A DNA stretch of 64,000 nucleotides, taken from Escherichia phage vB_EcoM-Ro111lw. The position numbers and the translations under genes were made by a program. Numbering within the stretch: position 1 is the first letter of the stretch; the number at the start of each line of letters is the position of its first letter. Of the stretch, positions 55,958-64,000 are shown piece after piece. The notes below the pieces were generated by a model. That model was not told the origin of the DNA, ran no database searches, and worked only from the letters and a program-made list of their open reading frames with translations. The stretch lies in the sequence record MH571750.1; one strand, 5' to 3'.

Positions 55958-56743
55958 ATGGGTATTGTAAAAATCATCAATGGTGATATCTTTGCTGCAT
56001 TTGATAAAGGTAAGTTTGACGTCATCGGTCACGGTTGCAACTGTATGAACTTAATGGGTGCAGGTATCGCTGACAAGATTTCTAAACTTTACCCAAAAGC
56101 ATATGAGACTGATACAGAAGTTTATCTGTATGCAGGTGGAATAGGCCACAAGCCCTGTGAGAATTTACTAGGCAATTTCTCTGTAGCACGTTTAAAACAA
56201 GGCCGTATAGCTAACCTTTACACTCAGCTTAAGACTGGTAAAGATGCCCGATACAGTGCTTTAGAGTCATCTTTGAAACAGCTTAACAGATACTGTGAAG
56301 TCAATCAGTTGAAGAAAGTCGGGTTACCTATGATTGGTGCAGGTATCGGTGGGCTAGACCCTCAAGCCGTCACAGTTATCATTAATCAGGTGATGAAGAG
56401 TGTAGATGTTTATCTGTATGTCTACGAAGGAGAGATGTACCACAAGTTACGCTCAGGTTGGAAGAACTACTGTGAGCCAGAATACTTTGCAGGTGTAGTA
56501 ACGTTCACAGATGATGCAGTTACCCTCTTCAGACGAAGAAAAGGTAAGATACATCAAAGTAACCCTCCGGTTGAGAAGATGTCTCTAAGTAACGCTCTAG
56601 TTACCCACCTGTCGAAGGGCAATCACAGGATAGCCGTAACATTTGGCAGTGATGCAGATACATATATCTATGCAAGAACTGATGAGGATATCGAGACGGT
56701 CTTCTCTTCATCGGAAGTTACCTTCTTAGACGCAAAGAACTAA
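55958..56743 (+). CDS. Macro-domain (ADP-ribose-binding/processing) protein with about 100-aa C-terminal extension
   Basis: N-terminus VKIINGDIF...DVIGHGCNCMNLMGAGIADKI parallels the macro-domain pattern (GDIT...D.IVNAAN...GGGV..AI); RBS GGGAGAG. Confidence 0.5.
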   Translation: MGIVKIINGDIFAAFDKGKFDVIGHGCNCMNLMGAGIADKISKLYPKAYETDTEVYLYAGGIGHKPCENLLGNFSVARLKQGRIANLYTQLKTGKDARYSALESSLKQLNRYCEVNQLKKVGLPMIGAGIGGLDPQAVTVIINQVMKSVDVYLYVYEGEMYHKLRSGWKNYCEPEYFAGVVTFTDDAVTLFRRRKGKIHQSNPPVEKMSLSNALVTHLSKGNHRIAVTFGSDADTYIYARTDEDIETVFSSSEVTFLDAKN

Positions 56744-56827
56744 GAAACTCTGTATAATATTCACAATATACTAAGCCTTTCTTATCTGGTAAATTTTTCA
56801 GGTAAGGAGGGCTTTTTTATTTCAGGA

Positions 56828-57010
56828 TTGTGCAGGTAGAGTTCTGGACAGAAATCTGTAGAGAAAATTTTGAACTCCAAAGAGAAAATTCATTTTCAAA
56901 CTGTGCAGGTAATCTCCAAAGAGCTTTTTCATTTTCAAAACGTGCAGACCCCGCTCAGGTCGGGCAAGAAAAATCATTTTAGAATTGTGCAGGTAGGTGG
57001 ATGCAGGTGG
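56828..57010 (+). repeat. Tandem degenerate repeats (about 40-45 bp unit) with core CATTTTCAAA-N-TGTGCAGGTA in a 520-bp non-coding gap
   Basis: TGTGCAGGTA-like cores at about 56830, 56902, 56941, 56987 and 57001; AAAGAG...TTCATTTTCAAA precedes three of them. Confidence 0.6.
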
Positions 57011-57171
57011 GGATGTCGCCATTTCTCACAAGGCTAACACATCTGGAAATAAAAGTCAACAGAAAAATTTGTAGCGGATTGAAAAATAATTCTTGATTGT
57101 AGTTCTGTTTTGTGGTAGTCGCGTGCGCCCGTTTCATTACAATTTTTGCAAAAATATTTTTAAAATTCCTA

Positions 57172-57263
57172 TTGACTCTTTGAGTATGGTTATCTAATAT
57201 TTGCATCAACGGGGAGGGAATGACCTTCCCCACTAAGTAAAGTCCTAAACTGGAGATTCTAAA
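57172..57263 (+). promoter_or_regulatory. Type-A cassette 1: TTGACT-N17-TAATAT promoter plus conserved hairpin leader and RBS
   Basis: Leader TCAACGGGGAGGGAATGACCTTCCCCACTAAGTAAAGTCCTAAACTGGAGATTCTAAA immediately before ATG 57264; GGGAA-tgacc-TTCCC hairpin. Confidence 0.6.
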
Positions 57264-57644
57264 ATGGCATACCGTGCACCTAAATTCATCAACAAAGACA
57301 ACTTCCGCAACGCACTGGAGAAGTCACTTGATGAAAAATTTAACGGCAAATTGATTGTTGTTCACGCATTCAATTTTAAGTATGATATTAACGGGAATAA
57401 AATCAACCATTACACGGCAACCATGTTAGATGGTACGCTATCAAGTGAAAAAGCCGTACTGAATGCACTTGCAGGACGTGGTAAAAACCTGATAAGCTGC
57501 AATAAGAGACGTTATCAAGGTGGCGCATATGGTTATGATGATGCTGTTTACCATCTTGAAAATATGGGCTATTCAGTGGAGAAAGCTGGAGCGTCTCAAA
57601 TAATTGGTAGTGATGGTTATGTGACAATCTTCAAAATTAAATAA
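57264..57644 (+). CDS. Hypothetical small protein (cassette-associated)
   Basis: 126 aa, ATG after conserved leader. Confidence 0.55.
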   Translation: MAYRAPKFINKDNFRNALEKSLDEKFNGKLIVVHAFNFKYDINGNKINHYTATMLDGTLSSEKAVLNALAGRGKNLISCNKRRYQGGAYGYDDAVYHLENMGYSVEKAGASQIIGSDGYVTIFKIK

Positions 57645-57650
57645 AAGTAC

Positions 57651-57730
57651 TTTACAAGGGGCTTATAGTTCGATAAAGTAAGCCCCAGATAAAGAGCTTT
57701 ATCACTCAATCCTAAATTGGAGATTCAAAA
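57651..57730 (+). promoter_or_regulatory. Type-B cassette 1: TTTACA + GGGGCTTA...TAAGCCCC hairpin (with embedded -10-like TAAAGT) + conserved leader
   Basis: 8-bp GC-rich stem; followed by AGATAAAGAGCTTTATCACTCAATCCTAAATTGGAGATTCAAAA then ATG 57731. Confidence 0.55.
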
Positions 57731-57988
57731 ATGGCTATTATCAAAAACGTTGTAGTTCCTGCAAAAACTCGTGATGACGCTCGCATCATGGCGAAAAAGT
57801 TAGGCGGGAAAGTGGTTGACAACGGAAAACAATCTGCTGTAAGATGGAGCGTGAAGGCTGATAAGCAACTAACCTTAAAACGCAGTTCAAACAATCTTTT
57901 TAAAGGTGTAAAATCACTCGGTAAAGTGAACGTGTTTACCAAAAAAGGCTATAAAATGCACTTATCATTAACTGGCAATTTAATCTGA
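57731..57988 (+). CDS. Hypothetical small basic protein (cassette-associated)
   Basis: 85 aa. Confidence 0.5.
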   Translation: MAIIKNVVVPAKTRDDARIMAKKLGGKVVDNGKQSAVRWSVKADKQLTLKRSSNNLFKGVKSLGKVNVFTKKGYKMHLSLTGNLI

Positions 57989-57996
57989 TAAAGTAC

Positions 57997-58078
57997 TTTA
58001 CAGGGGGCTTAAAAGCTGATATCTTAAGCCCCAGATAAAGAGCTTTACCACTCAATCCTTAAACTAGGAGATTCAAAA
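57997..58078 (+). promoter_or_regulatory. Type-B cassette 2 (TTTACA + GGGGCTTAA...TTAAGCCCC hairpin + leader)
   Basis: 9-bp stem, -10-like TATCTT in 3' arm, conserved leader to ATG 58079. Confidence 0.55.
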
Positions 58079-58591
58079 ATGAAAACTGTAGAAGCTACCT
58101 TTGAAGTTGTAAAAGAAAAATTTTCCATCATTTACGAAGCTGTTAATTGCTTTGAAGCAAGCCATAACCTTGATAATTGGGAGTTTACAGATGACCATCA
58201 AGGCGGCGTGACTATTAAAAACCCCAACTGTCAGCGTAATGATTTTAAATATGCAATCCCTTTACATTACAGCCTTAAACAGCTTTCAAGTGACTATGCA
58301 AAACAAGGCCGGGAAAATCCATCAAAAGAGGCTTACATAAGCTTACAGAAAGAACTAGAAAGAGATTTAGAGGCTTCAGAATACAACCTTGCCGCGAAAG
58401 TTGTCGATGCAAATGGTCAAACAATTTTAGATAGTTTTTATATTGGTTACGCTTTCGATTGGTGCTATAGTGACGGCGATGATTTAGAGGATAGACTAAA
58501 AGAAGAGGTGAGCAATTCAGACGCAGAATCTGAAGTATTAGAACGCTTGGAAGCATTAAAAGATTCAGTGATGAATATCTTTAAGAACTAA
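58079..58591 (+). CDS. Hypothetical protein (cassette-associated)
   Basis: 170 aa. Confidence 0.55.
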   Translation: MKTVEATFEVVKEKFSIIYEAVNCFEASHNLDNWEFTDDHQGGVTIKNPNCQRNDFKYAIPLHYSLKQLSSDYAKQGRENPSKEAYISLQKELERDLEASEYNLAAKVVDANGQTILDSFYIGYAFDWCYSDGDDLEDRLKEEVSNSDAESEVLERLEALKDSVMNIFKN

Positions 58592-58600
58592 ATAGATTTC

Positions 58601-58678
58601 TTTACACGGGGCTATCAAGCTGATAAGATAGCCCCAGATAAAGAGATTTATCAACTATCCTAAACTGGAGATTCAAAA
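58601..58678 (+). promoter_or_regulatory. Type-B cassette 3 (TTTACA + GGGGCTATC...GATAGCCCC hairpin + leader)
   Basis: Different stem sequence from cassettes 1 and 2 but base pairing kept (compensatory changes). Confidence 0.55.
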
Positions 58679-58975
58679 ATGAAATTATCAAATAAAGTCC
58701 GTGAAAATCTAAGCAAGTTACTCAACAAAATTGATTTTATCGAGACATCAAGGAATAGTCATGATGTTATGGAATGGTTACACGGAAAAATCAAAGGCCG
58801 TCGTGTAGTGATTTGCTTATGGAATAGTTGCAGGGAATATAAAAAACCTGTATTACAAGTCAATATCTATGATGATACTTTTAAAAGCCCTGTAAAGTCT
58901 AAAAGTGATTTATTAGAATCCTATGAGATAACTGTAAATGGCAAAGTATCAAGTAAAGAGGAAACACCATGTTAA
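58679..58975 (+). CDS. Hypothetical small protein (cassette-associated)
   Basis: 98 aa. Confidence 0.5.
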   Translation: MKLSNKVRENLSKLLNKIDFIETSRNSHDVMEWLHGKIKGRRVVICLWNSCREYKKPVLQVNIYDDTFKSPVKSKSDLLESYEITVNGKVSSKEETPC

Positions 58976-59301
58976 TGACTGGTATCACTGCAATCATTGC
59001 CATTTTCGCGCTATATAAGGCATATAAAGCCTATAATCTAGCAAATAAGGCAATCACACAGCAGGTTAGCAATAGCCTTGTAGAAAGCTTTCTAGGGCGT
59101 CTCAGTGATGAGCAAATAAAGCGGTTAGAAATGAGCTTCAGATTCAAAGCGAAAACCTATCAGATAAGTGACATCTTCAAGGATGATTTCCAGTTAGTCG
59201 ATGATTATAATTCTCTGATAAATGCTTTAAATATCAGTGACTTAAAAGACTACTACGCTGTAATTGTTCAAGAGTTGAGCAAACGAAAACAAAACTGTTG
59301 A
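58969..59301 (+). CDS. Hypothetical membrane-anchored protein
   Basis: N-terminal hydrophobic helix (MLMTGITAIIAIFALY); RBS AAGAGGAAA. Confidence 0.5.
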   Translation: MLMTGITAIIAIFALYKAYKAYNLANKAITQQVSNSLVESFLGRLSDEQIKRLEMSFRFKAKTYQISDIFKDDFQLVDDYNSLINALNISDLKDYYAVIVQELSKRKQNC

Positions 59302-59390
59302 CACTGATTTTTAGATAGATTAAATTACACATCAACGGGGAGGGAACAACCTTCCCACTAAATAAAGTCCTTAAACTAGGAGATTCTAAA
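59298..59390 (+). promoter_or_regulatory. Type-A cassette 2: TTGACA-N17-TAAATT promoter plus conserved hairpin leader
   Basis: Consensus -35; leader ACACATCAACGGGGAGGGAACAACCTTCCCACTAAATAAAGTCCTTAAACTAGGAGATTCTAAA before ATG 59391. Confidence 0.65.
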
Positions 59391-59663
59391 ATGTATACTA
59401 CTAACAATGGCCTCACTTTGAACGTCACACTACGTCACTATGTAGATGGTGTCATGCACTTTGAAGATTTACAAGCTGAACAACATATCTTAGATTGGCA
59501 AGTCGCAGGACTCCAAAAAACTGCTACGGGATACGGTAAAAAGATTCCAACTAGTTGGAAAGTTCACTATGAAGGACGTTTGCGCAGAATTTATCAAGAT
59601 GTGCAAAGCAATAGCGCATCGAGTTACATTATAGTAAAAGGTGAAAAACTGCATTTAGTATAA
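59391..59663 (+). CDS. Hypothetical small protein (cassette-associated)
   Basis: 90 aa. Confidence 0.5.
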   Translation: MYTTNNGLTLNVTLRHYVDGVMHFEDLQAEQHILDWQVAGLQKTATGYGKKIPTSWKVHYEGRLRRIYQDVQSNSASSYIIVKGEKLHLV

Positions 59664-59668
59664 AGTAC

Positions 59669-59748
59669 TTTACATGGGGTTTAAAAGTTGGTATCTTAAG
59701 CCCCAGATAAAGAGCTTTACCCCTAAATCCTAAATTGGAGATTCAAAA
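59669..59748 (+). promoter_or_regulatory. Type-B cassette 4 (TTTACA + GGGGTTTAA...TTAAGCCCC hairpin + leader)
   Basis: Stem retains pairing through a G-U wobble; conserved leader to ATG 59749. Confidence 0.55.
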
Positions 59749-60153
59749 ATGGCTATTAATAATCGTGAGTTATCAATCTTAAAAGCACGTTTAACCGTTA
59801 ATCGAATCAATGTTATCACGTCATCAGCACCAGACGAGACATTACACAACATTATCGGGAAGATTCAAGGTGTTATCTTAGACGTTGAGAATGTAAAAAA
59901 CTCATTAGCAGACGTTGCAGCAGGTGTTACACTAGACGGCGCACAATATGAAATGATTGACATGTTAGGCAAATCAAAGGTTATGAATAAAGAGTTAGAC
60001 TTAAAAATGTTTCGATTTGCCGTGAAAGTATGGCTATCTGTCGAGTATGATGCTAATTTTGCAATTGCTGATTTCTTTGCCACTTGGTTGCAACGTAACT
60101 TAACAAATCATGATTTTCGTGATATCTGTGATGCAATTTACGCAGAACTTTAA
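59749..60153 (+). CDS. Hypothetical protein (cassette-associated)
   Basis: 134 aa. Confidence 0.55.
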   Translation: MAINNRELSILKARLTVNRINVITSSAPDETLHNIIGKIQGVILDVENVKNSLADVAAGVTLDGAQYEMIDMLGKSKVMNKELDLKMFRFAVKVWLSVEYDANFAIADFFATWLQRNLTNHDFRDICDAIYAEL

Positions 60154-60161
60154 AAATTTTA

Positions 60162-60253
60162 TTGACACTGATTTTTAGATAGACTAAATTACACATCAAC
60201 GGGGAGGGAACAACCTTCCCACTAAATAAAGTCCTTAAACTAGGAGATTCAAA
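60162..60253 (+). promoter_or_regulatory. Type-A cassette 3: TTGACA-N17-TAAATT promoter plus conserved leader
   Basis: Almost identical over about 90 bp to cassette at 59298. Confidence 0.65.
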
Positions 60254-60796
60254 ATGAAATGCTTTCACGGTACTACTCAAGAAAACTTTATCAACCTGAT
60301 TAATAACGGTGATAAACCATCAGGTGTATGGAATTGTTCGGATATGGACGGCAATTTTTACGTGTACCCAGAAAATAAACTCTATGGTGATGATGAGGAA
60401 GAGATAGCATCGGAAGGTATCCAGCAAGCTCTAGGAAATGCCACTATCACGGCAGCTTTTCAGATGAAAACTCAAAATATTGTTATCTTAGAACTTGACA
60501 TTCCAGAGGATGAGCTAAATGATGATTATTCTTGTGATAACATGTCAAATATAGCAAGCTTTACAGAGTACTTTGATGTAAATTGGATTAAAAAGGTCTA
60601 TACAACAGAGTTCAACGCTATGTATTCACCTTTTTGTCTCCCTTCACTGGATAACCCAAATTTGAATTATCTTGATGAAACATTGGAGCTACTTGCTAAA
60701 AGTATCCAACAATCCGACAGTATTCAGGTTTTTTGTGACATCATGGATACACTGACAGAAAACATTGTAGAGAGTGATTTAAAGGTCTTTTTCTAA
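60254..60796 (+). CDS. Hypothetical acidic protein (cassette-associated)
   Basis: 180 aa. Confidence 0.55.
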   Translation: MKCFHGTTQENFINLINNGDKPSGVWNCSDMDGNFYVYPENKLYGDDEEEIASEGIQQALGNATITAAFQMKTQNIVILELDIPEDELNDDYSCDNMSNIASFTEYFDVNWIKKVYTTEFNAMYSPFCLPSLDNPNLNYLDETLELLAKSIQQSDSIQVFCDIMDTLTENIVESDLKVFF

Positions 60797-60862
60797 AAAC
60801 CTATACATTCACCTTATAAACACTGATTAACCCCTTACAGGGGCTTTTAGAGGGCTTAAATC

Positions 60863-61096
60863 ATGCTTACAACCATTTATCTCATCCTTTCTATCTGTAA
60901 CGGTCATTCATGTGACTTTAAAGGGCTTGAAGAGTTTACAGGAAGTAAAGAAAATGCTATTCAGGTTTGCCAGATAGCAAGACAAGACTATCCCGCCAGT
61001 GACGACATTCAATGCTACTTTAAGACAGAAGATGAAGACGGCATCTATTTTGACAGCGTTGACGGTCAATATGAAATTATCATTGAAAAAGACTAG
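60863..61096 (+). CDS. Hypothetical small protein
   Basis: 77 aa; RBS AGAGGG; preceded by CCCCT-tac-AGGGG hairpin. Confidence 0.45.
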   Translation: MLTTIYLILSICNGHSCDFKGLEEFTGSKENAIQVCQIARQDYPASDDIQCYFKTEDEDGIYFDSVDGQYEIIIEKD

Positions 61097-61187
61097 ACAA
61101 GCCTGATAAAAGTCTGTAAATTACACATCAACGGGGAGGGAATGACCTTCCCCACTAAATAAAGTCCTTAAACTAGGAGATTCAAAA
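61094..61187 (+). promoter_or_regulatory. Type-A cassette 4: TAGACA-N17-TAAATT promoter plus conserved leader
   Basis: Leader identical to cassette 1 hairpin version (GGGAATGACCTTCCCC). Confidence 0.6.
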
Positions 61188-61529
61188 ATGGCTTATGTAA
61201 CCGTAATTACCGATAAAGCTGGCTCATCTTGGTCAACTCAGGTTAGTGATAAGATGTCGCCTATGCAGTGCCTAAAATACTTTGAGCAGTGGAACAAAGG
61301 CGAGGATGTAAGCCCCTTTCAAGTGATGCAAATCATCCATACAGATAACGAAGGGAATAAAACGACCTTGAACAGTGAATACTACGCAAGCCGTTTTGAA
61401 ACGAGAAGTAAAACAATGAAGCTTTTACGTGAATCCGGCTATTCTCATATTGCCGCGCTAATCTGGGATGACCTGCTAAAAAGCCAGCGTATCAGCTATG
61501 TAAAACCTGAAAAAATATTCATCAGTTAA
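61188..61529 (+). CDS. Hypothetical protein (cassette-associated)
   Basis: 113 aa. Confidence 0.55.
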   Translation: MAYVTVITDKAGSSWSTQVSDKMSPMQCLKYFEQWNKGEDVSPFQVMQIIHTDNEGNKTTLNSEYYASRFETRSKTMKLLRESGYSHIAALIWDDLLKSQRISYVKPEKIFIS

Positions 61530-61561
61530 TCAATAACTTACAAAAAACTTTTAAAAAAGTG

Positions 61562-61590
61562 TTGACAATACCCCTTGACATTGGTAACTT
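61562..61590 (+). promoter_or_regulatory. Possible additional promoter TTGACA-N17-TAACTT in a 220-bp non-coding spacer (tandem TTGACA hexamers)
   Basis: Two TTGACA hexamers 13 bp apart; no ORF directly downstream. Confidence 0.3.
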
Positions 61591-61658
61591 TGTTCGAGGG
61601 GGTTTATCTAAAAGGGATTCACTTAATAGATTCTTTATAGATAAACTTAAAAAATTGC

Positions 61659-61750
61659 TTGCAAAGGCAAATCAAAACAAGTAAATTACTAATCAACGGG
61701 AAGGGATTAACCTTCCCACTAAGTAAAGTCCTTAAACTAGGAGATTCAAA
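61659..61750 (+). promoter_or_regulatory. Type-A cassette 5: TTGCAA-N17-TAAATT promoter plus leader (hairpin variant GGGA-ttaacct-TCCC)
   Basis: Conserved TAAATTACTAATCAACGGG...ACTAAGTAAAGTCCTTAAACTAGGAGATTCAAA before ATG 61751. Confidence 0.6.
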
Positions 61751-62281
61751 ATGAACAAGTTTCAAGCTATCAACTATATTCGCTCATCCAACGTTATGAC
61801 TAAGCCCGTTAAAGATACCTTCGAATTTCGTTGCAACGGTGTACACTTTGCAACTATCACTAAATCAGAAAACGGGGCTTATTATATACATCGTCGTAAT
61901 GCCTCTACTGTTGTAGTCTCTCACTTTATGCAAGCTGTAGCAGAACTGTTACCGCTATTCTTAGGTATTTACTTAGATGAGTGCAAAAACGTTCGCAACC
62001 ACGTTAAAGACCTTTTAAATGGTTATAAAATGGCTTATGAACGTTCTATCAAGAATCTTAACAAGTTCTATAAAGCCCCTGAAAATACTGTTTCAATGGC
62101 TTACAGTGTAAGCGGTGAGTTGGTTAGCCTCTTTGAAGTGGAAGAAATCGCGTTGCATGACTTACGCCCTAGCGGTTACTCTAAGACACTAGAGGAAGGT
62201 TTAACGTTCAATATCAAGAACTTAGAAAAAACTTTAAAAGATATTGAAAAAGATATTGACGAGACAATCAAAAATCTGTAA
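61751..62281 (+). CDS. Hypothetical protein (cassette-associated)
   Basis: 176 aa. Confidence 0.55.
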   Translation: MNKFQAINYIRSSNVMTKPVKDTFEFRCNGVHFATITKSENGAYYIHRRNASTVVVSHFMQAVAELLPLFLGIYLDECKNVRNHVKDLLNGYKMAYERSIKNLNKFYKAPENTVSMAYSVSGELVSLFEVEEIALHDLRPSGYSKTLEEGLTFNIKNLEKTLKDIEKDIDETIKNL

Positions 62282-62343
62282 ATTGTCAATCAACGGGGGA
62301 TAACCTCCCCCACTAAACAAAATCCTAAACTGGAGTTATCAAG
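62256..62343 (+). promoter_or_regulatory. Type-A cassette 6: TTGACG-N17-TAAATT promoter (overlapping upstream stop) plus leader with compensated hairpin GGGGGA-taacc-TCCCCC
   Basis: Stem sequence differs from other copies but pairing is kept. Confidence 0.6.
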
Positions 62344-62607
62344 ATGGAAAACGTAGAATTAACCACACTTTTACAAATTGCAACCGACAAAGAAGATGTA
62401 GCATTATTCCACCGTATCGAAAGCGATTTGTTCAATGGTGAAATCATTAAAGAATCTTACGAAGTTGTCGGATTCAAAGATGGTAAAGCATTTGGCTTTT
62501 TTGACCTCGACAAAAGCAAAGCGGTTACAATGTACGATGTTCTATCTTGTGAAATTCTGACAAAATACAACGAAAAAAGGCTTGCAACCTACGCCAATAT
62601 GCAGTAA
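62344..62607 (+). CDS. Hypothetical small protein (cassette-associated)
   Basis: 87 aa. Confidence 0.5.
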   Translation: MENVELTTLLQIATDKEDVALFHRIESDLFNGEIIKESYEVVGFKDGKAFGFFDLDKSKAVTMYDVLSCEILTKYNEKRLATYANMQ

Positions 62608-62674
62608 ATTACTAATCAACGGGGAGGGAATGACCTTCCCACTAAACAAAGTCCTAAACTGGAGAATCTAAATT
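62582..62674 (+). promoter_or_regulatory. Type-A cassette 7: TTGCAA-N17-TAAATT promoter plus conserved leader
   Basis: -10 overlaps upstream stop codon; leader with GGGAATGACCTTCCC hairpin before ATG 62675. Confidence 0.6.
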
Positions 62675-62923
62675 ATGTCAACTATCCGCGTAACTGTTAA
62701 TGCTTATGGCTGCCACAAACTTGATGCAAAATTCGATATCGGTGGAACAGATAACACCTTTGACCTTATCAAAATGCTGATTCAGCAGGTGATACCAGAT
62801 TATAACCCTACTGATGACTTCTGGAAAGATGCCGTAAAAGAAGCCATAAACGAGGAATCTCACTACCATTATTGGGGTGACTTGATTGTCTCTCTATACT
62901 ACAGCAAACAAGGCTACAACTAA
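62675..62923 (+). CDS. Hypothetical small protein (last ORF before the repeat region)
   Basis: 82 aa. Confidence 0.5.
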   Translation: MSTIRVTVNAYGCHKLDAKFDIGGTDNTFDLIKMLIQQVIPDYNPTDDFWKDAVKEAINEESHYHYWGDLIVSLYYSKQGYN

Positions 62924-62933
62924 TCGACGCAAC

Positions 62934-62985
62934 GGGGCTAAATAGCCCCAGATACCTTTACAGCCCCTTAAATGGGGCTTTTTTA
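62934..62985 (+). terminator. Tandem hairpins ending in a rho-independent terminator
   Basis: GGGGCT-aaat-AGCCCC then AGCCCC-ttaaat-GGGGCT followed by TTTTTT. Confidence 0.6.
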
Positions 62986-63129
62986 CGTCTATCGAATCCT
63001 TATACAATCCCTTTCCCTTTCCTTTCTAGAATCTTATCAGACCTTAAAAAGCAATAACTCTATAGTCTACTCTATAACCTCTTATCAAATCAACTTAAAT
63101 ATAAGCCAATAACCCCAGAAAGGGGATGG

Positions 63130-63560
63130 CCCATTAAAACGCTCTATAAAGCTCTATAACAGCCTTATCAACCTAACTTAAGCAATCATATTAACCCACT
63201 CTAAAAAGCCCTTTATAGAGCTTCCCAGAGCCTTAAAAGAATCTTATAAGGGTGAAAGCTTATAGGCTGGCTAGTATCTTGTGAATAACTAAACAATCCC
63301 CTTGATAGTCACTAAAAAGCATGTTATAGGGGCTATAAAGTTACTTCAAAGTAACGTAAAAAAGGCTATAAAGTTACGTAAATGCTAGCCCCCTTAACAT
63401 TTTCTTAACAATTTCTTAACAAACCCTACATAGTTATGCTTTTAAGGCACTTGTTAGAGACTTGTTAGCCCCTTGTTAAATCTCTGTTAAGACCACGTAA
63501 AAGCCTTGTAAGAGTCTTTGGCATAGCCTTTAAAGCTCCTATAAAGCCCTATAAAGAGGT
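63130..63560. repeat. (G)CTATAAAG repeat family and palindromes in ORF-free region
   Basis: GCTCTATAAAGCTCTATAAC, inverted CTTTATAGAGC, GGCTATAAAGTTAC twice, CCTATAAAG twice; palindrome GTTACTTCAAAGTAAC and TTACGTAA. Confidence 0.6.
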
Positions 63561-64000
63561 GTCTGTATAGTTGGGGTGTAGATACTAGGAAGAGGTTTAA
63601 AAGAGCTTACAAGGAGCTATAGAGAGCTTTTAAGAGGTATGTTTAAGAGTTCACTAAGAAAGGAAAGGGAACGATAAGGAAGAGATAGTGACCATGTTAA
63701 TAGCTTGTTAAAAAGATTAAACACTTGTTAGAAACTTGTTAATTATCTAATTGGTATTGTTACCAATCCCTAACAAAATAACTCTTTAAAATTAACTTGT
63801 TAGCTCTTGTTAGTCATCTGTTAAGCCTCTGTAAAGACTATTCAGCACTTGTTAGAAAACTGTTAAGCCCTTGTTAGTTCTGTTAAGAAACTGTTAAGAC
63901 CTTTGAAGAGTTGTTAAGAAGATGTGAGAACTGTTAAGAGATTGTTAAGGATATTTTAAAATTTTGCAAAGTACTTGTAAGGGAGCTGTTAAGGGCTACC
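63404..64000. repeat. Array of about 20-25 CTTGTTAG / CTGTTAAG octamer repeats, many phased at 10-12 bp; continues to window end
   Basis: Direct copies at about 63450, 63461, 63472, 63484, 63705, 63724, 63735, 63796, 63806, 63818, 63848, 63860, 63870, 63880, 63891, 63910, 63931, 63942, 63986, plus inverted TTAACAA copies at 63404-63423; no ORF of 60 aa or more on either strand. Confidence 0.7.

What the first reader, a model, noticed from the sequence alone, without database searches (positions are those of the whole stretch)
57172..62674. Seven copies of a conserved promoter-hairpin-leader cassette (type A) before small ORFs
Seven ORFs (starts 57264, 59391, 60254, 61188, 61751, 62344, 62675) are each preceded by a near-identical element of about 90 bp: a sigma70-like promoter (TTGACA/TTGCAA/TTGACT -N17- TAAATT/TAATAT), then ACACATCAACGGGGAGGGAATGACCTTCCCCACTAAATAAAGTCCTTAAACTAGGAGATTCAAAA and the ATG. 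The leader has a small hairpin (GGGAA-N5-TTCCC); copy 6 has a different stem sequence (GGGGGA-taacc-TCCCCC) that still pairs, which argues for selection on structure. Conservation runs from the -10 through the Shine-Dalgarno, so the transcribed leader itself is likely functional (translation operator, RNase site or riboregulator target). The arrangement recalls the promoter-early stem-loop modules described in hyperplastic regions of T4-type phages.
Basis: partly seen in the sequence, partly recalled or inferred. Interest (0 to 1): 0.65.

Follow-up and report, generated by a model that had tools for sequence, protein, structure and literature searches.

The report
Portable promoter-hairpin cassettes in Felix O1-like phage
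Seven small genes of unknown function in a Felix O1-type phage each carry the same ~95-bp promoter, RNA hairpin and ribosome-binding leader, and comparison with relatives shows that genes are gained, lost and swapped exactly at these cassettes, as with the 'PeSL' cassettes of T4-like phages.

Summary
The window is a Felixounavirus (Felix O1-like myovirus). Seven + strand copies of a ~95-bp cassette precede seven unrelated ORFan genes and occur nowhere else in the 64 kb.

Each copy has a sigma70-like promoter (TTGnnn-N17-TAnnnT). A 6-8 bp G-run/C-run hairpin starts exactly 10 nt after the -10 hexamer. An A-rich leader follows, and then a TIR (translation initiation region) that is shared with a second cassette type, B.

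The hairpin is under structural selection. Among 53 unique variants from relatives, 44 keep at least 5 contiguous pairs, against 3.5% of shuffles. Eight of 11 modelled pairs show double changes, loops vary freely, and G-U pairs point to the sense RNA.

Comparison with 11 relatives shows one-gene-plus-one-cassette polymorphism. Of 67 internal synteny break ends, 54 fall inside cassettes, which make up 17.5% of the region.

This is a PeSL-like regulatory and recombination cassette system in Ounavirinae. It is not described in the Felix O1 or wV8 genome papers, which list or annotate the repeats without interpretation. Type A differs from PeSLs because the hairpin is transcribed from its own promoter. 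It is therefore most likely a 5'-proximal stabilising or insulating stem-loop rather than a terminator; that step is inferred.

Verdict: new variant of a known kind, moderate interest.

The parts
57172..57266 (+). Type A cassette 1, before the 126-aa ORFan. It has -35 TTGACT at 57172-57177, -10 TAATAT at 57195-57200, the hairpin GGGGAGGG-AAUGA-CCUUCCCC at 57211-57231, the small helix UCC/GGA over the SD at 57243-57254, and the ATG at 57264.
59298..59393 (+). Type A cassette 2, before the 90-aa ORFan. It has TTGACA-N17-TAAATT at 59298-59326, the hairpin at 59337-59356 (7 bp), and the ATG at 59391.
60162..60256 (+). Type A cassette 3, before the 180-aa ORFan. It has TTGACA-N17-TAAATT at 60162-60190, the hairpin at 60201-60220, and the ATG at 60254. 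In wV8, AYO145A, UAB_Phi87, NBSal004 and BPS15Q2 an extra gene plus a type B cassette sit between this promoter and this gene.
61094..61190 (+). Type A cassette 4, before the 113-aa ORFan. It has TAGACA-N17-TAAATT at 61094-61122, the hairpin at 61133-61153 (8 bp), and the ATG at 61188.
61659..61753 (+). Type A cassette 5, before the 176-aa ORFan. It has TTGCAA-N17-TAAATT at 61659-61687, the hairpin GGGAAGG-GAUUAA-CCUUCCC at 61698-61717, and the ATG at 61751.
62256..62346 (+). Type A cassette 6, before the 87-aa ORFan. It has TTGACG-N17-TAAATT at 62256-62284, the variant hairpin GGGGGA-UAACC-UCCCCC at 62295-62311, and the ATG at 62344.
62582..62677 (+). Type A cassette 7, before the 82-aa ORFan. 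It has TTGCAA-N17-TAAATT at 62582-62610, the hairpin at 62621-62640, and the ATG at 62675.
57651..57733 (+). Type B cassette 1. It has TTTACA-N17-TAAAGT with a 9-bp GGGGCUUAU/GUAAGCCCC hairpin spanning the spacer and -10, then CAGATAAAGAGCTTTATC, then the TIR shared with type A. The ATG is at 57731.
57997..58081 (+). Type B cassette 2 (ATG 58079).
58601..58681 (+). Type B cassette 3 (ATG 58679).
59669..59751 (+). Type B cassette 4 (ATG 59749).
56773..56814 (+). Intrinsic-terminator-like hairpin with a T-run. It closes the upstream operon and marks the left edge of the cassette region.
62962..62979 (+). Intrinsic-terminator-like hairpin with a T-run after the last cassette gene. It marks the right edge of the region.

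Best explanation
The seven elements are portable expression cassettes of the ORFan-rich early region of a Felix O1-like phage. They are the Ounavirinae counterpart of the PeSL cassettes of T4-type phages.

Each type A cassette supplies three things:
1. A host sigma70 promoter.
2. A G-run/C-run stem-loop that starts 10 nt after the -10 hexamer. It is therefore transcribed, and it sits about 2-4 nt from the predicted 5' end of the cassette's own mRNA.
3. An A-rich leader with a strong SD, whose last ~25 nt are shared with the second cassette type, B.

Because this sequence is repeated between nearly all genes, homologous recombination between cassettes deletes, inserts or replaces one gene at a time without disturbing the expression of its neighbours. 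The promoter half stays with the genomic slot, and the TIR half travels with the gene.

The hairpin acts as RNA on the sense strand. Its most likely job is generic and depends on structure rather than on a specific sequence. In the cassette's own transcript it would form a 5'-proximal stem-loop that slows 5'-end-dependent decay. In read-through transcripts from upstream promoters it would form an intercistronic stem-loop that insulates or stabilises the upstream message.

What is shown and what is inferred:
- Shown here: the repeat, the promoter footprint, the structural conservation, the strandedness, and the cassette-bounded synteny breaks.
- Inferred: promoter activity, the transcription start site (TSS), the stabilising role, and the recombination mechanism.
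For: **Repeat and copy number**
- Seven copies, all on the + strand, and none elsewhere in the window.
- Across phage records there are 248 records and 1528 places, all in the Escherichia, Salmonella, Shigella and Citrobacter phage set; every record examined was Felixounavirus or Mooglevirus, apart from one record named Staphylococcus phage SA1.

**Promoter**
- The hexamers are conserved at a 17-bp spacing across 78 different spacers, with an A-rich upstream tract.

**Hairpin**
- Of 53 unique variants, 44 keep at least 5 contiguous pairs from the base, against 3.5% of shuffles.
- On the model-based alignment of 137 copies, 93.5% of cells are paired, 8 of 11 pairs change on both sides, the covariation score of 0.256 is reached by 0 of 500 shuffles, and all slid controls score lower.
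- Distinct stems all pair: GGGGAGGG/CCUUCCCC, GGGAGG/CCUCCC, GGGAGGU/ACCUCCC, GGGAGGC/GCCUCCC, GGGGGA/UCCCCC, GGGGC/GCCCC and GGGA/UCCC.
- G-U pairs account for 25 of 330 pairs. On the other strand these would be C-A mismatches.
- The loops are not conserved.
- The hairpin is not followed by a T-run, and none of the hairpins is flagged as a terminator.

**Modularity**
- The same gene carries type A in one phage and type B in another, depending on whether an extra gene lies in front of it. This holds for families F8, F7 and F4.
- 54 of 67 internal HSP ends lie inside cassettes, which occupy 17.5% of the region (binomial p = 3e-29). Neighbouring HSPs overlap by 20-40 nt in the shared leader.

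**Downstream genes and timing**
- The downstream genes match PHROG families of unknown function and have no Pfam hit.
- Felix O1 RT-PCR puts ORFs 16, 20, 21 and 22 of this region at maximal expression 5 min after infection (PMC3185647).

**Comparison with PeSLs**
- PeSLs are defined as a sigma70-like promoter plus a polyG/polyC stem-loop with G-T pairs, followed by SD and ATG. They lie in ORFan-rich plastic regions, and indels fall at the cassettes (PMC2839356 and PMC4122927).
Against: - No transcription start, RNA 3' end or half-life data exist for any Felix O1-like phage in the searched library. Promoter use and the position of the hairpin relative to the 5' end are therefore predictions.
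- With a predicted 2-4 unpaired 5' nucleotides, protection from RppH and RNase E would be only partial. This rests on my own knowledge of the Belasco-lab work on 5' stem-loops.
- Type B genes, and a few genes left with the TIR only (PHB11 F2 and NBSal004 F4), lack a 5' hairpin. The hairpin is therefore not needed for every gene.
- The invariant UCAAC before the stem has no explanation in a purely structural role.
- The HSP ends are not independent events, because the relatives share history.
- The covariance-model alignment leans towards the structure it was built with.
- Within-genome homogenisation of hairpin variants means that part of the conservation is concerted evolution rather than selection. 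For example, the GAAA loop occurs in four Maleficent slots.
Confidence: 0.6

Rival explanations
1. The hairpin is a transcription terminator or attenuator for RNA polymerase arriving from upstream, as shown for one PeSL stem-loop. Its presence in the cassette's own transcript would be incidental.
For: - The stem-loop of PeSL211/210 reduced lacZ expression as much as rrnB T1 (PMC2839356).
- The G-run-then-C-run design is the same here.
- Type B and the Kolesnikvirus cassettes place the hairpin upstream of the predicted start, as PeSLs do.
Against: - In type A the hairpin starts 10 nt after the -10 hexamer. An efficient terminator there would abort the cassette's own transcripts after about 25 nt.
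- No T-run follows the hairpin (CCCCACTAAATAAAG), and the terminator scan does not flag it, although it does find the real terminators at 56773 and 62962.
Confidence: 0.17
2. UCAAC plus the hairpin is the recognition site of a phage- or host-encoded factor that times early gene expression. The factor could be an endoribonuclease, a translational repressor or an antitermination factor of the nut/boxB kind.
For: - UCAAC immediately 5' of the stem is invariant in two genera while the stem varies.
- A related AUCAAA/AUCGAAAC motif flanks the hairpins in Kolesnikvirus.
- Some Mooglevirus loops are GNRA (GAAA, GAGA).
- Felix O1 RT-PCR shows different timing among genes of the region.
Against: - Loop length and sequence vary from 4 to 8 nt, and stem length from 4 to 8 bp. 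That is unlike boxB or other protein-specific hairpins.
- There is no Rfam match at the gathering or E-value thresholds.
- No candidate factor was identified.
- The stem is too short for RNase III.
Confidence: 0.13
3. The hairpin is an SD:anti-SD mimic that acts in cis on translation. The purine arm (GGGAGG) would be a standby or decoy ribosome site. Alternatively, once freed, the pyrimidine arm (ACCUCC, identical to the 16S 3' end) would pair with the gene's SD about 25 nt downstream.
For: - In nearly all variants the 5' arm is purine-only and SD-like, and the 3' arm is CCUCC-like.
- A second small helix, UCC(U)/(A)GGA, overlaps the SD. Its T and A indels are perfectly coupled: 283 instances have neither, 181 have both and 0 have only one.
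- Kolesnikvirus also has the complement of its SD just upstream of it.
Against: - The Mooglevirus variants GGGGC/GCCCC and GGGA/UCCC lack the mimicry yet keep the hairpin.
- The alternative pairing with the real SD is only about 4 bp, against -12 kcal/mol for the hairpin.
- Type B stems (GGGGCUUA) do not mimic the SD.
Confidence: 0.05
4. The similarity is only a by-product of recent duplication or gene conversion of intergenic DNA, and the hairpin itself has no function.
For: - Hairpin variants are homogenised within genomes.
- G-run and C-run length changes look like slippage.
Against: - Pairing is kept through at least seven different stem sequences and across three genera.
- Only 9 of 53 variants are degraded.
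- The G-first orientation is always kept.
Confidence: 0.04
5. The hairpins are rho-independent terminators for the minus strand, as annotated in the wV8 record.
For: The wV8 GenBank record marks two of them as minus-strand terminators.
Against: - No minus-strand genes converge on them.
- The G-U pair of the commonest variant becomes a C-A mismatch on the minus strand.
- There is no T-run on that strand, and the scan does not flag them.
Confidence: 0.01

Closest known systems
PeSL (promoter-early stem-loop) cassettes of T4-type phages RB49/phi1, T4/PST and KVP40/nt-1 (Arbiol 2010, PMC2839356; Comeau 2014, PMC4122927)
   Same: - A repeated intergenic unit made of an A/T-rich tract, a sigma70-like promoter with a 17-bp spacer, a polyG-then-polyC stem-loop with G-U/G-T pairs, then SD and ATG.
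- It sits between small ORFans in a plastic region.
- Insertions, deletions and replacements between close relatives begin and end in the cassettes.
- Type B here (hairpin between -35 and the start, overlapping -10) matches the commonest PeSL subclass.
   Different: - The host phage lineage differs (Ounavirinae, ~87 kb, not T4-like), and there is no sequence similarity.
- In type A the stem-loop lies after the predicted start, so it is part of the cassette's own mRNA and cannot be an efficient terminator.
- Two cassette classes share one TIR, which is where most crossovers map.
- Promoter and terminator activity and mini-circles were shown for PeSLs and not here.
5'-terminal stabilising stem-loops (ompA 5' UTR; phage T7 gene 10 leader GGGAGACCACAACGGUUUCCC). 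Cited from my own knowledge, not tested here.
   Same: A GC-rich hairpin within a few nucleotides of the mRNA 5' end, where the stem sequence is free to vary as long as it pairs.
   Different: The 5' end is not mapped here. The predicted 2-4 nt single-stranded tail is at the limit for protection. The element is repeated many times in one genome.
Lambda-type nut sites (boxA + boxB)
   Same: A small hairpin placed shortly downstream of early promoters and preceded by a conserved linear motif.
   Different: The boxB loop is conserved and protein-specific, whereas here the loops vary freely. A hairpin follows every promoter rather than one per operon. No N-like protein was identified.
Direct repeats listed for Felix O1 (Whichard 2010, PMC3185647) and the DR_1-DR_9 features of the wV8 GenBank record
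   Same: These are the same sequences. The 39-bp repeat TTGACACTGGTTTTTAGATAGATTAAATTACACATCAAC is a type A promoter, and the 57-bp repeat is type B.
   Different: They were reported only as repeats. Neither paper calls them promoters, hairpins or module boundaries, and the Felix O1 promoter list does not include them.

Membership tests
PeSL cassette | Repeated motif containing a sigma70-like early promoter (-35, ~17 bp, -10) with an A/T-rich upstream tract | tested here: met
   at sequence level only. TTG is present in 82.5% of 120 unique copies, the TAnnnT -10 (fixed in the search pattern) sits 17 bp downstream of the -35, and there are 78 different spacers.
PeSL cassette | Stable stem-loop, typically polyG followed by polyC, next to or overlapping the promoter | tested here: met
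   for type A, and for type B.
PeSL cassette | Stem-loop lies upstream of the cassette's own transcription start (five described positions, all before +1) | tested here: not met
   In type A the stem starts 10 nt after the -10 hexamer in every copy. That is after any plausible start. The start site itself is predicted, not mapped. Type B does meet this feature.
PeSL cassette | SD and start codon of the downstream gene at the 3' end of the motif | tested here: met
PeSL cassette | Clustered in a plastic region of small genes without known function | tested here: met
PeSL cassette | Insertions, deletions and replacements between close relatives are bounded by the cassettes | tested here: met
   54 of 67 HSP ends lie in 17.5% of the sequence, and at least 9 of the 11 cassettes are used as break points.
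PeSL cassette | Stem-loop terminates or attenuates transcription in vivo; promoter is strong in vivo; mini-circles form | not testable with these tools
   This needs reporter fusions, in vitro transcription and inverse PCR.
Intrinsic (rho-independent) terminator | GC-rich hairpin followed directly by a U-run | tested here: not met
   None of the seven hairpins is flagged, and the tail is ACUAAAUAAAG.
RNase III processing site (T7 early-region type) | Roughly two helical turns (~20 bp) of duplex. This criterion is from my own knowledge. | tested here: not met
   The stems are 4-8 bp.
nut/boxB antitermination site | Conserved loop sequence and size recognised by an N-type protein | tested here: not met
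   Loops range from 4 to 8 nt with unrelated sequences.
Any curated RNA family (Rfam 15) | Match at the gathering score | tested here: not met
   One search gave 0 hits. One search gave only chance-level hits unrelated to the cassettes.
5'-terminal stabiliser hairpin | Hairpin within about 0-4 nt of the mRNA 5' end, with half-life depending on it | tested here: inconclusive
   The geometry fits if the start is 7-8 nt after the -10 hexamer. No 5' end or half-life data exist.

The most novel reading that the evidence does not exclude
The G-run/C-run hairpin could be more than passive homology. It could be the recognition point of an active, targeted gene-cassette exchange system in lytic phages, working like an integron. 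A phage recombination or replication protein would act at the extruded or single-stranded hairpin, excise 'gene + cassette' mini-circles and re-insert them at any other cassette. The fact that unrelated myovirus lineages (T4-like phages and Ounavirinae) arrived at the same G4...C4 promoter-hairpin design would then reflect a shared mechanism.
Probability: 0.08. Interest if true: 0.8.

Novelty: new variant of a known kind. Interest (0 to 1): 0.45.

Why it matters
- Felix O1-like phages are reference typing and biocontrol phages with hundreds of sequenced genomes, yet their early transcription signals were left unexplained in the genome paper.
- The cassettes give a concrete map of about a dozen early promoters. 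The Felix O1 paper's own promoter list does not include them.
- The cassettes explain why gene content in this region differs by single genes between isolates.
- The results extend the PeSL idea of promoter-hairpin linkers driving modular shuffling beyond T4-like phages, to a second myovirus subfamily and three of its genera.
- The many natural variants form a ready-made mutational series for testing what a promoter-proximal G/C hairpin does.
- The cassettes are obvious safe insertion points and expression modules for engineering these phages.

Tried and rejected
- **Rfam.** The gathering search of the whole window gave nothing. The E-value search of 57-63 kb gave three chance-level hits unrelated to the cassettes.
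- **Literature.** Two searches with loose term requirements returned mostly irrelevant papers. No Felixounavirus transcriptome or TSS study is in the held library. The wV8 paper does not mention the repeats. A VpaE1-plus-promoter search found nothing relevant.
- **Mini-ORF in the loop.** ATGACCTTCCCCACTAAATAA (MTFPTK*) is present in only some copies and changes frame in copy 7, so I rejected it.
- **Duplication of whole genes.** Rejected, because the downstream proteins fall in seven separate families.
- **Minus-strand terminator** (as annotated in the wV8 record). Rejected on the G-U pairs and the lack of a T-run.
- **First alignment (A3).** It included two mis-cut Maleficent sequences and was not used for the model.
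- **TTGTGCAG as a phage-specific promoter motif.** It is not enriched window-wide: 90 hits against 76 expected.
- **Short inverted repeats inside type A promoter spacers** (CTTG...CAAG, AGAC...GTCT). They are only 4 bp, and I did not pursue them.

Full report
**What the window is.** The 5.6 kb around the finding matches 257 phage records. Those I examined belong to the genus Felixounavirus. The best match is Salmonella phage SPJ41, at 89% identity over 84% of the query. Gene order follows Felix O1: rIIA, rIIB, polynucleotide kinase, spanins, a macro-domain 'phosphatase', a terminator, the region of the finding, and then a non-coding stretch.

**Check of the observation.** The repeat finder returns seven copies of the core at 57204, 59330, 60194, 61126, 61690, 62284 and 62614, all on the + strand. 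Each ends at a real ATG ORF of 82-180 aa.

The core motif occurs six times exactly, plus the divergent copy 6, against 0.25 expected by chance. A covariance model built from ten copies (six from the window, four from relatives) finds the seven at 50-91 bits and nothing else comparable in 64 kb.

The alignment shows -35 hexamers TTGACT, TTGACA, TTGACA, TAGACA, TTGCAA, TTGACG and TTGCAA. A 17-bp spacer follows in every copy, then -10 TAATAT or TAAATT, four variable bases, an invariant (A/T)TCAAC, and the hairpin.

RNAfold gives a 7-8 bp stem, GGGGAGGG/CCUUCCCC, with one G-U pair and a 5-6 nt loop. A second, weak helix, UCC(U)-UAAACU-(A)GGA, overlaps the Shine-Dalgarno sequence.

The seven downstream proteins fall in seven separate families. 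They match only PHROGs of unknown function and have no Pfam hit.

**A second cassette type.** Four further genes (ATG at 57731, 58079, 58679 and 59749) are preceded by a different repeat, which I call type B. It reads AAAGTAC-TTTACA-N17-TAnnnT, with a 9-bp GGGGCUUA.../...UAAGCCCC hairpin whose arms lie in the spacer and just after the -10 hexamer. CAGATAAAGAGCTTTAYC follows, and then the same TCCT(T)AAACT(A)GGAGATTCAAAAATG as in type A.

In 198 instances from relatives, TTTACA is invariant and a TAnnnT hexamer sits exactly 17 bp downstream in 96%, although the loop varies. Type B is therefore a promoter embedded in a hairpin-forming palindrome. Its predicted start falls just 3' of the hairpin.

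**Is the type A hairpin selected?**
- *Distribution.* The leader occurs in 248 phage records at 1528 places. The records I fetched are Felixounavirus or Mooglevirus.
- *Data set.* I fetched the region from eleven annotated relatives and scanned IMG/VR with a gapped pattern. This gave 196 type A instances with 53 different hairpin segments.
- *Alignment-free test.* Pairing inward from the base, 44 of 53 variants keep at least five contiguous pairs (mean 6.2). Only 3.5% of shuffles do so (mean 1.9).
- *Stem and loop variation.* The stems differ in sequence and length: GGGAGG/CCUCCC, GGGAGGU/ACCUCCC versus GGGAGGC/GCCUCCC, GGGGGA/UCCCCC, and in Mooglevirus GGGGAGG-GAAA-CUUCCCC, GGGGC-AAGAUAAA-GCCCC and GGGA-AACA-UCCC. 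The loops are unrelated.
- *Model-based test.* On the alignment of 137 copies, 93.5% of cells pair, 8 of 11 pairs change on both sides, no shuffle out of 500 reaches the covariation score, and all slid registers score lower. That alignment is fitted to the model, so the alignment-free count is the more independent test.
- *Strand.* 25 of 330 pairs are G-U, including one in the commonest variant. They would be C-A mismatches in the complementary strand, so the structure belongs to the sense RNA.
- *Not a terminator by sequence.* No T-run follows, and the terminator scan finds the true terminators at 56773 and 62962 but none of these hairpins.

**Is the promoter real?** Only sequence evidence is available. 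Across 120 unique type A upstream sequences with 78 different spacers, the -35 hexamer keeps TTG in 82.5% (plus TAGACA in 11%). The -10 hexamer (TAnnnT, a requirement of the search pattern) lies exactly 17 bp downstream, and an A-rich tract precedes the -35.

This is the footprint expected of a sigma70 promoter. The AYO145A record annotates two of these sites as promoters. The Felix O1 genome paper reports end-point RT-PCR in which ORFs 16, 20, 21 and 22 of this region peak at 5 min, and ORFs 17, 19 and 23 at 25 min.

The start site is not mapped anywhere I could find. With the usual 7-8 nt after the -10 hexamer it would fall on the CA of UCAAC, leaving about 2-4 unpaired nucleotides before the stem.

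**What the cassettes do in evolution.** This is the best-supported part of the analysis.
- *Module map.* A map of twelve genomes shows that differences in gene content are always 'one gene plus one cassette'.
  - The 180-aa gene carries type A in the window and in SPJ41.
  - In wV8, AYO145A, UAB_Phi87, NBSal004 and BPS15Q2 a 65-67 aa gene sits behind that same type A promoter, and the 180-aa gene has type B.
  - In Maleficent, Sf13 and VpaE1 an unrelated 82-aa gene takes that place. PHB11 has both extra genes.
  - The same pattern holds for the 126-aa and 113-aa genes.
- *Which half travels.* The upstream alignments show that the promoter half, together with the end of the preceding gene, stays with the slot. 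The last ~25 nt and the ATG travel with the gene. The junction lies in the TIR shared by types A and B.
- *Break points.* In blastn comparisons of 56700-63000 with the eleven relatives, 54 of 67 internal HSP ends lie inside cassettes, which make up 17.5% of the region (p = 3e-29). Neighbouring HSPs overlap by 20-40 nt in the shared leader, and at least nine of the eleven cassettes serve as break points. The events are not independent, but the pattern is unambiguous.
- *Concerted evolution.* Hairpin variants are homogenised within genomes. For example, the GAAA loop occurs in four Maleficent slots, which points to exchange among cassettes.

**Comparison with what is known.** The Felix O1 genome paper lists the type A promoter and the type B cassette only as 39-bp and 57-bp direct repeats. 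Its promoter list does not include them. The wV8 record annotates them as DR_1-DR_9 and calls two hairpins minus-strand terminators. The wV8 paper does not mention them.

The closest described system is the PeSL of T4-type phages. A PeSL has a sigma70-like promoter with an A/T-rich upstream tract and a polyG-then-polyC stem-loop with G-T pairs. The stem-loop is most often placed between -35 and -10 or over -10, and SD and ATG follow. PeSLs are clustered among ORFans, lie at indel boundaries and form mini-circles. One stem-loop was shown to cut lacZ expression like a strong terminator.

Type B fits that description closely. A Kolesnikvirus (Erwinia phage vEam_PM_6) carries clearly related type B cassettes with the stem changed to GGUGUUUA/UAAGCACC. 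It also has other promoter-embedded hairpins (GGGGUUA/UAACCCC, GGGGG/CCCCC) before its small genes. The design therefore spans at least three genera of Ounavirinae.

Type A meets every PeSL feature I could test except one. Its stem-loop lies after any plausible start, so it is part of its own transcript.

**Mechanism.** Because the hairpin is transcribed from its own promoter and lacks a U-run, an efficient terminator role would be self-defeating. Free variation of loop and stem argues against a sequence-specific protein or RNA partner in the hairpin, and 4-8 bp is too short for RNase III.

The remaining simple reading is a structure-only role in the sense RNA. In the cassette's own transcript it would be a stem-loop close to the 5' end that slows 5'-end-dependent decay, as known for ompA and the T7 gene 10 leader (my own knowledge). 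In read-through RNA it would be an intercistronic stem-loop that insulates the upstream message.

I put this at roughly 0.35-0.4 on its own. The overall statement (PeSL-like promoter/hairpin/TIR cassette acting as a module boundary) I put at 0.6.

Three points remain unexplained:
- the invariant UCAAC before the stem;
- the SD-like and anti-SD-like composition of the two arms;
- the perfectly coupled T/A indels in the SD helix (283 neither, 181 both, 0 single).

These keep a regulatory-site rival alive.

**Verdict.** The element is a new variant of a known kind: PeSL-like cassettes in Felix O1-like phages, with the stem-loop moved into the 5' UTR and two cassette classes sharing one TIR. Interest is moderate.

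Noticed in passing
57651-57733, 57997-58081, 58601-58681, 59669-59751: Type B is a second cassette type, with a TTTACA-N17-TAnnnT promoter embedded in a 9-bp G4...C4 hairpin. An invariant near-palindrome, GATAAAGAGCTTTATC, follows at about +2 to +18 and could be an operator. Related copies with a compensated stem occur in an Erwinia Kolesnikvirus (L105 11293-11377, 12231-12315, 13693-13777).
   Followed up: partly
all 11 cassette TIRs, e.g. 57243-57254 and 59368-59381: The TIR comes in two forms, CCTAAACTGGAG and CCTTAAACTAGGAG. The T and A insertions are perfectly coupled: 283 instances have neither, 181 have both and 0 have only one. This keeps a 3- or 4-bp helix that covers the SD. Kolesnikvirus also has the complement of its SD just upstream of it.
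   Followed up: partly
62980-64000: This non-coding stretch is full of short repeats (CTTGTTAR, CTATAAAG). Ten of the 20 CTTGTTAR sites in the window lie in 63450-63877. Several GenBank relatives begin or end here, so it is probably the physical genome end or terminal repeat, or an origin. Kolesnikvirus has CTGTTAA repeats at the equivalent place (L105 17250-17650).
   Followed up: partly
56875-56992: Three direct repeats (..TCATTTTCAAA..GTGCAG) at about 40-nt spacing lie between the terminator at 56773-56814 and the first type A promoter. Kolesnikvirus has four at 37-nt spacing (L105 9828-9975). The 8-mer is not enriched window-wide. The function is unknown.
   Followed up: partly
L008 3484-3801 (Felix O1 ORF19, Felix01p037): The RefSeq start of this gene (105 aa) is the ATG inside the hairpin loop GGGAATGACC. 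Orthologues start 45 nt downstream at the cassette ATG (90 aa), so the annotated start is probably wrong.
   Followed up: no
L003 9551-9595 and 11070-11090 (wV8 record): The wV8 GenBank record annotates type A hairpins as minus-strand rho-independent terminators, which is very likely a software artefact.
   Followed up: partly
60820-60862 and 61560-61605: Two C-run-first hairpins have T-rich tails: CCCCTTACAGGGGCTTTT before the 77-aa gene, and CCCCT...AGGGGGTTTATCT after the 113-aa gene. They look like internal terminators or attenuators. The 77-aa gene (60863) has no cassette of its own.
   Followed up: no
L010 6206-6258; L007 7320-7369: Some genes in relatives (PHB11 90-aa gene, NBSal004 113-aa gene) keep only the TIR half of a cassette, after a small gene was inserted between the type A promoter and the gene. 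These cassettes are split at the leader.
   Followed up: partly
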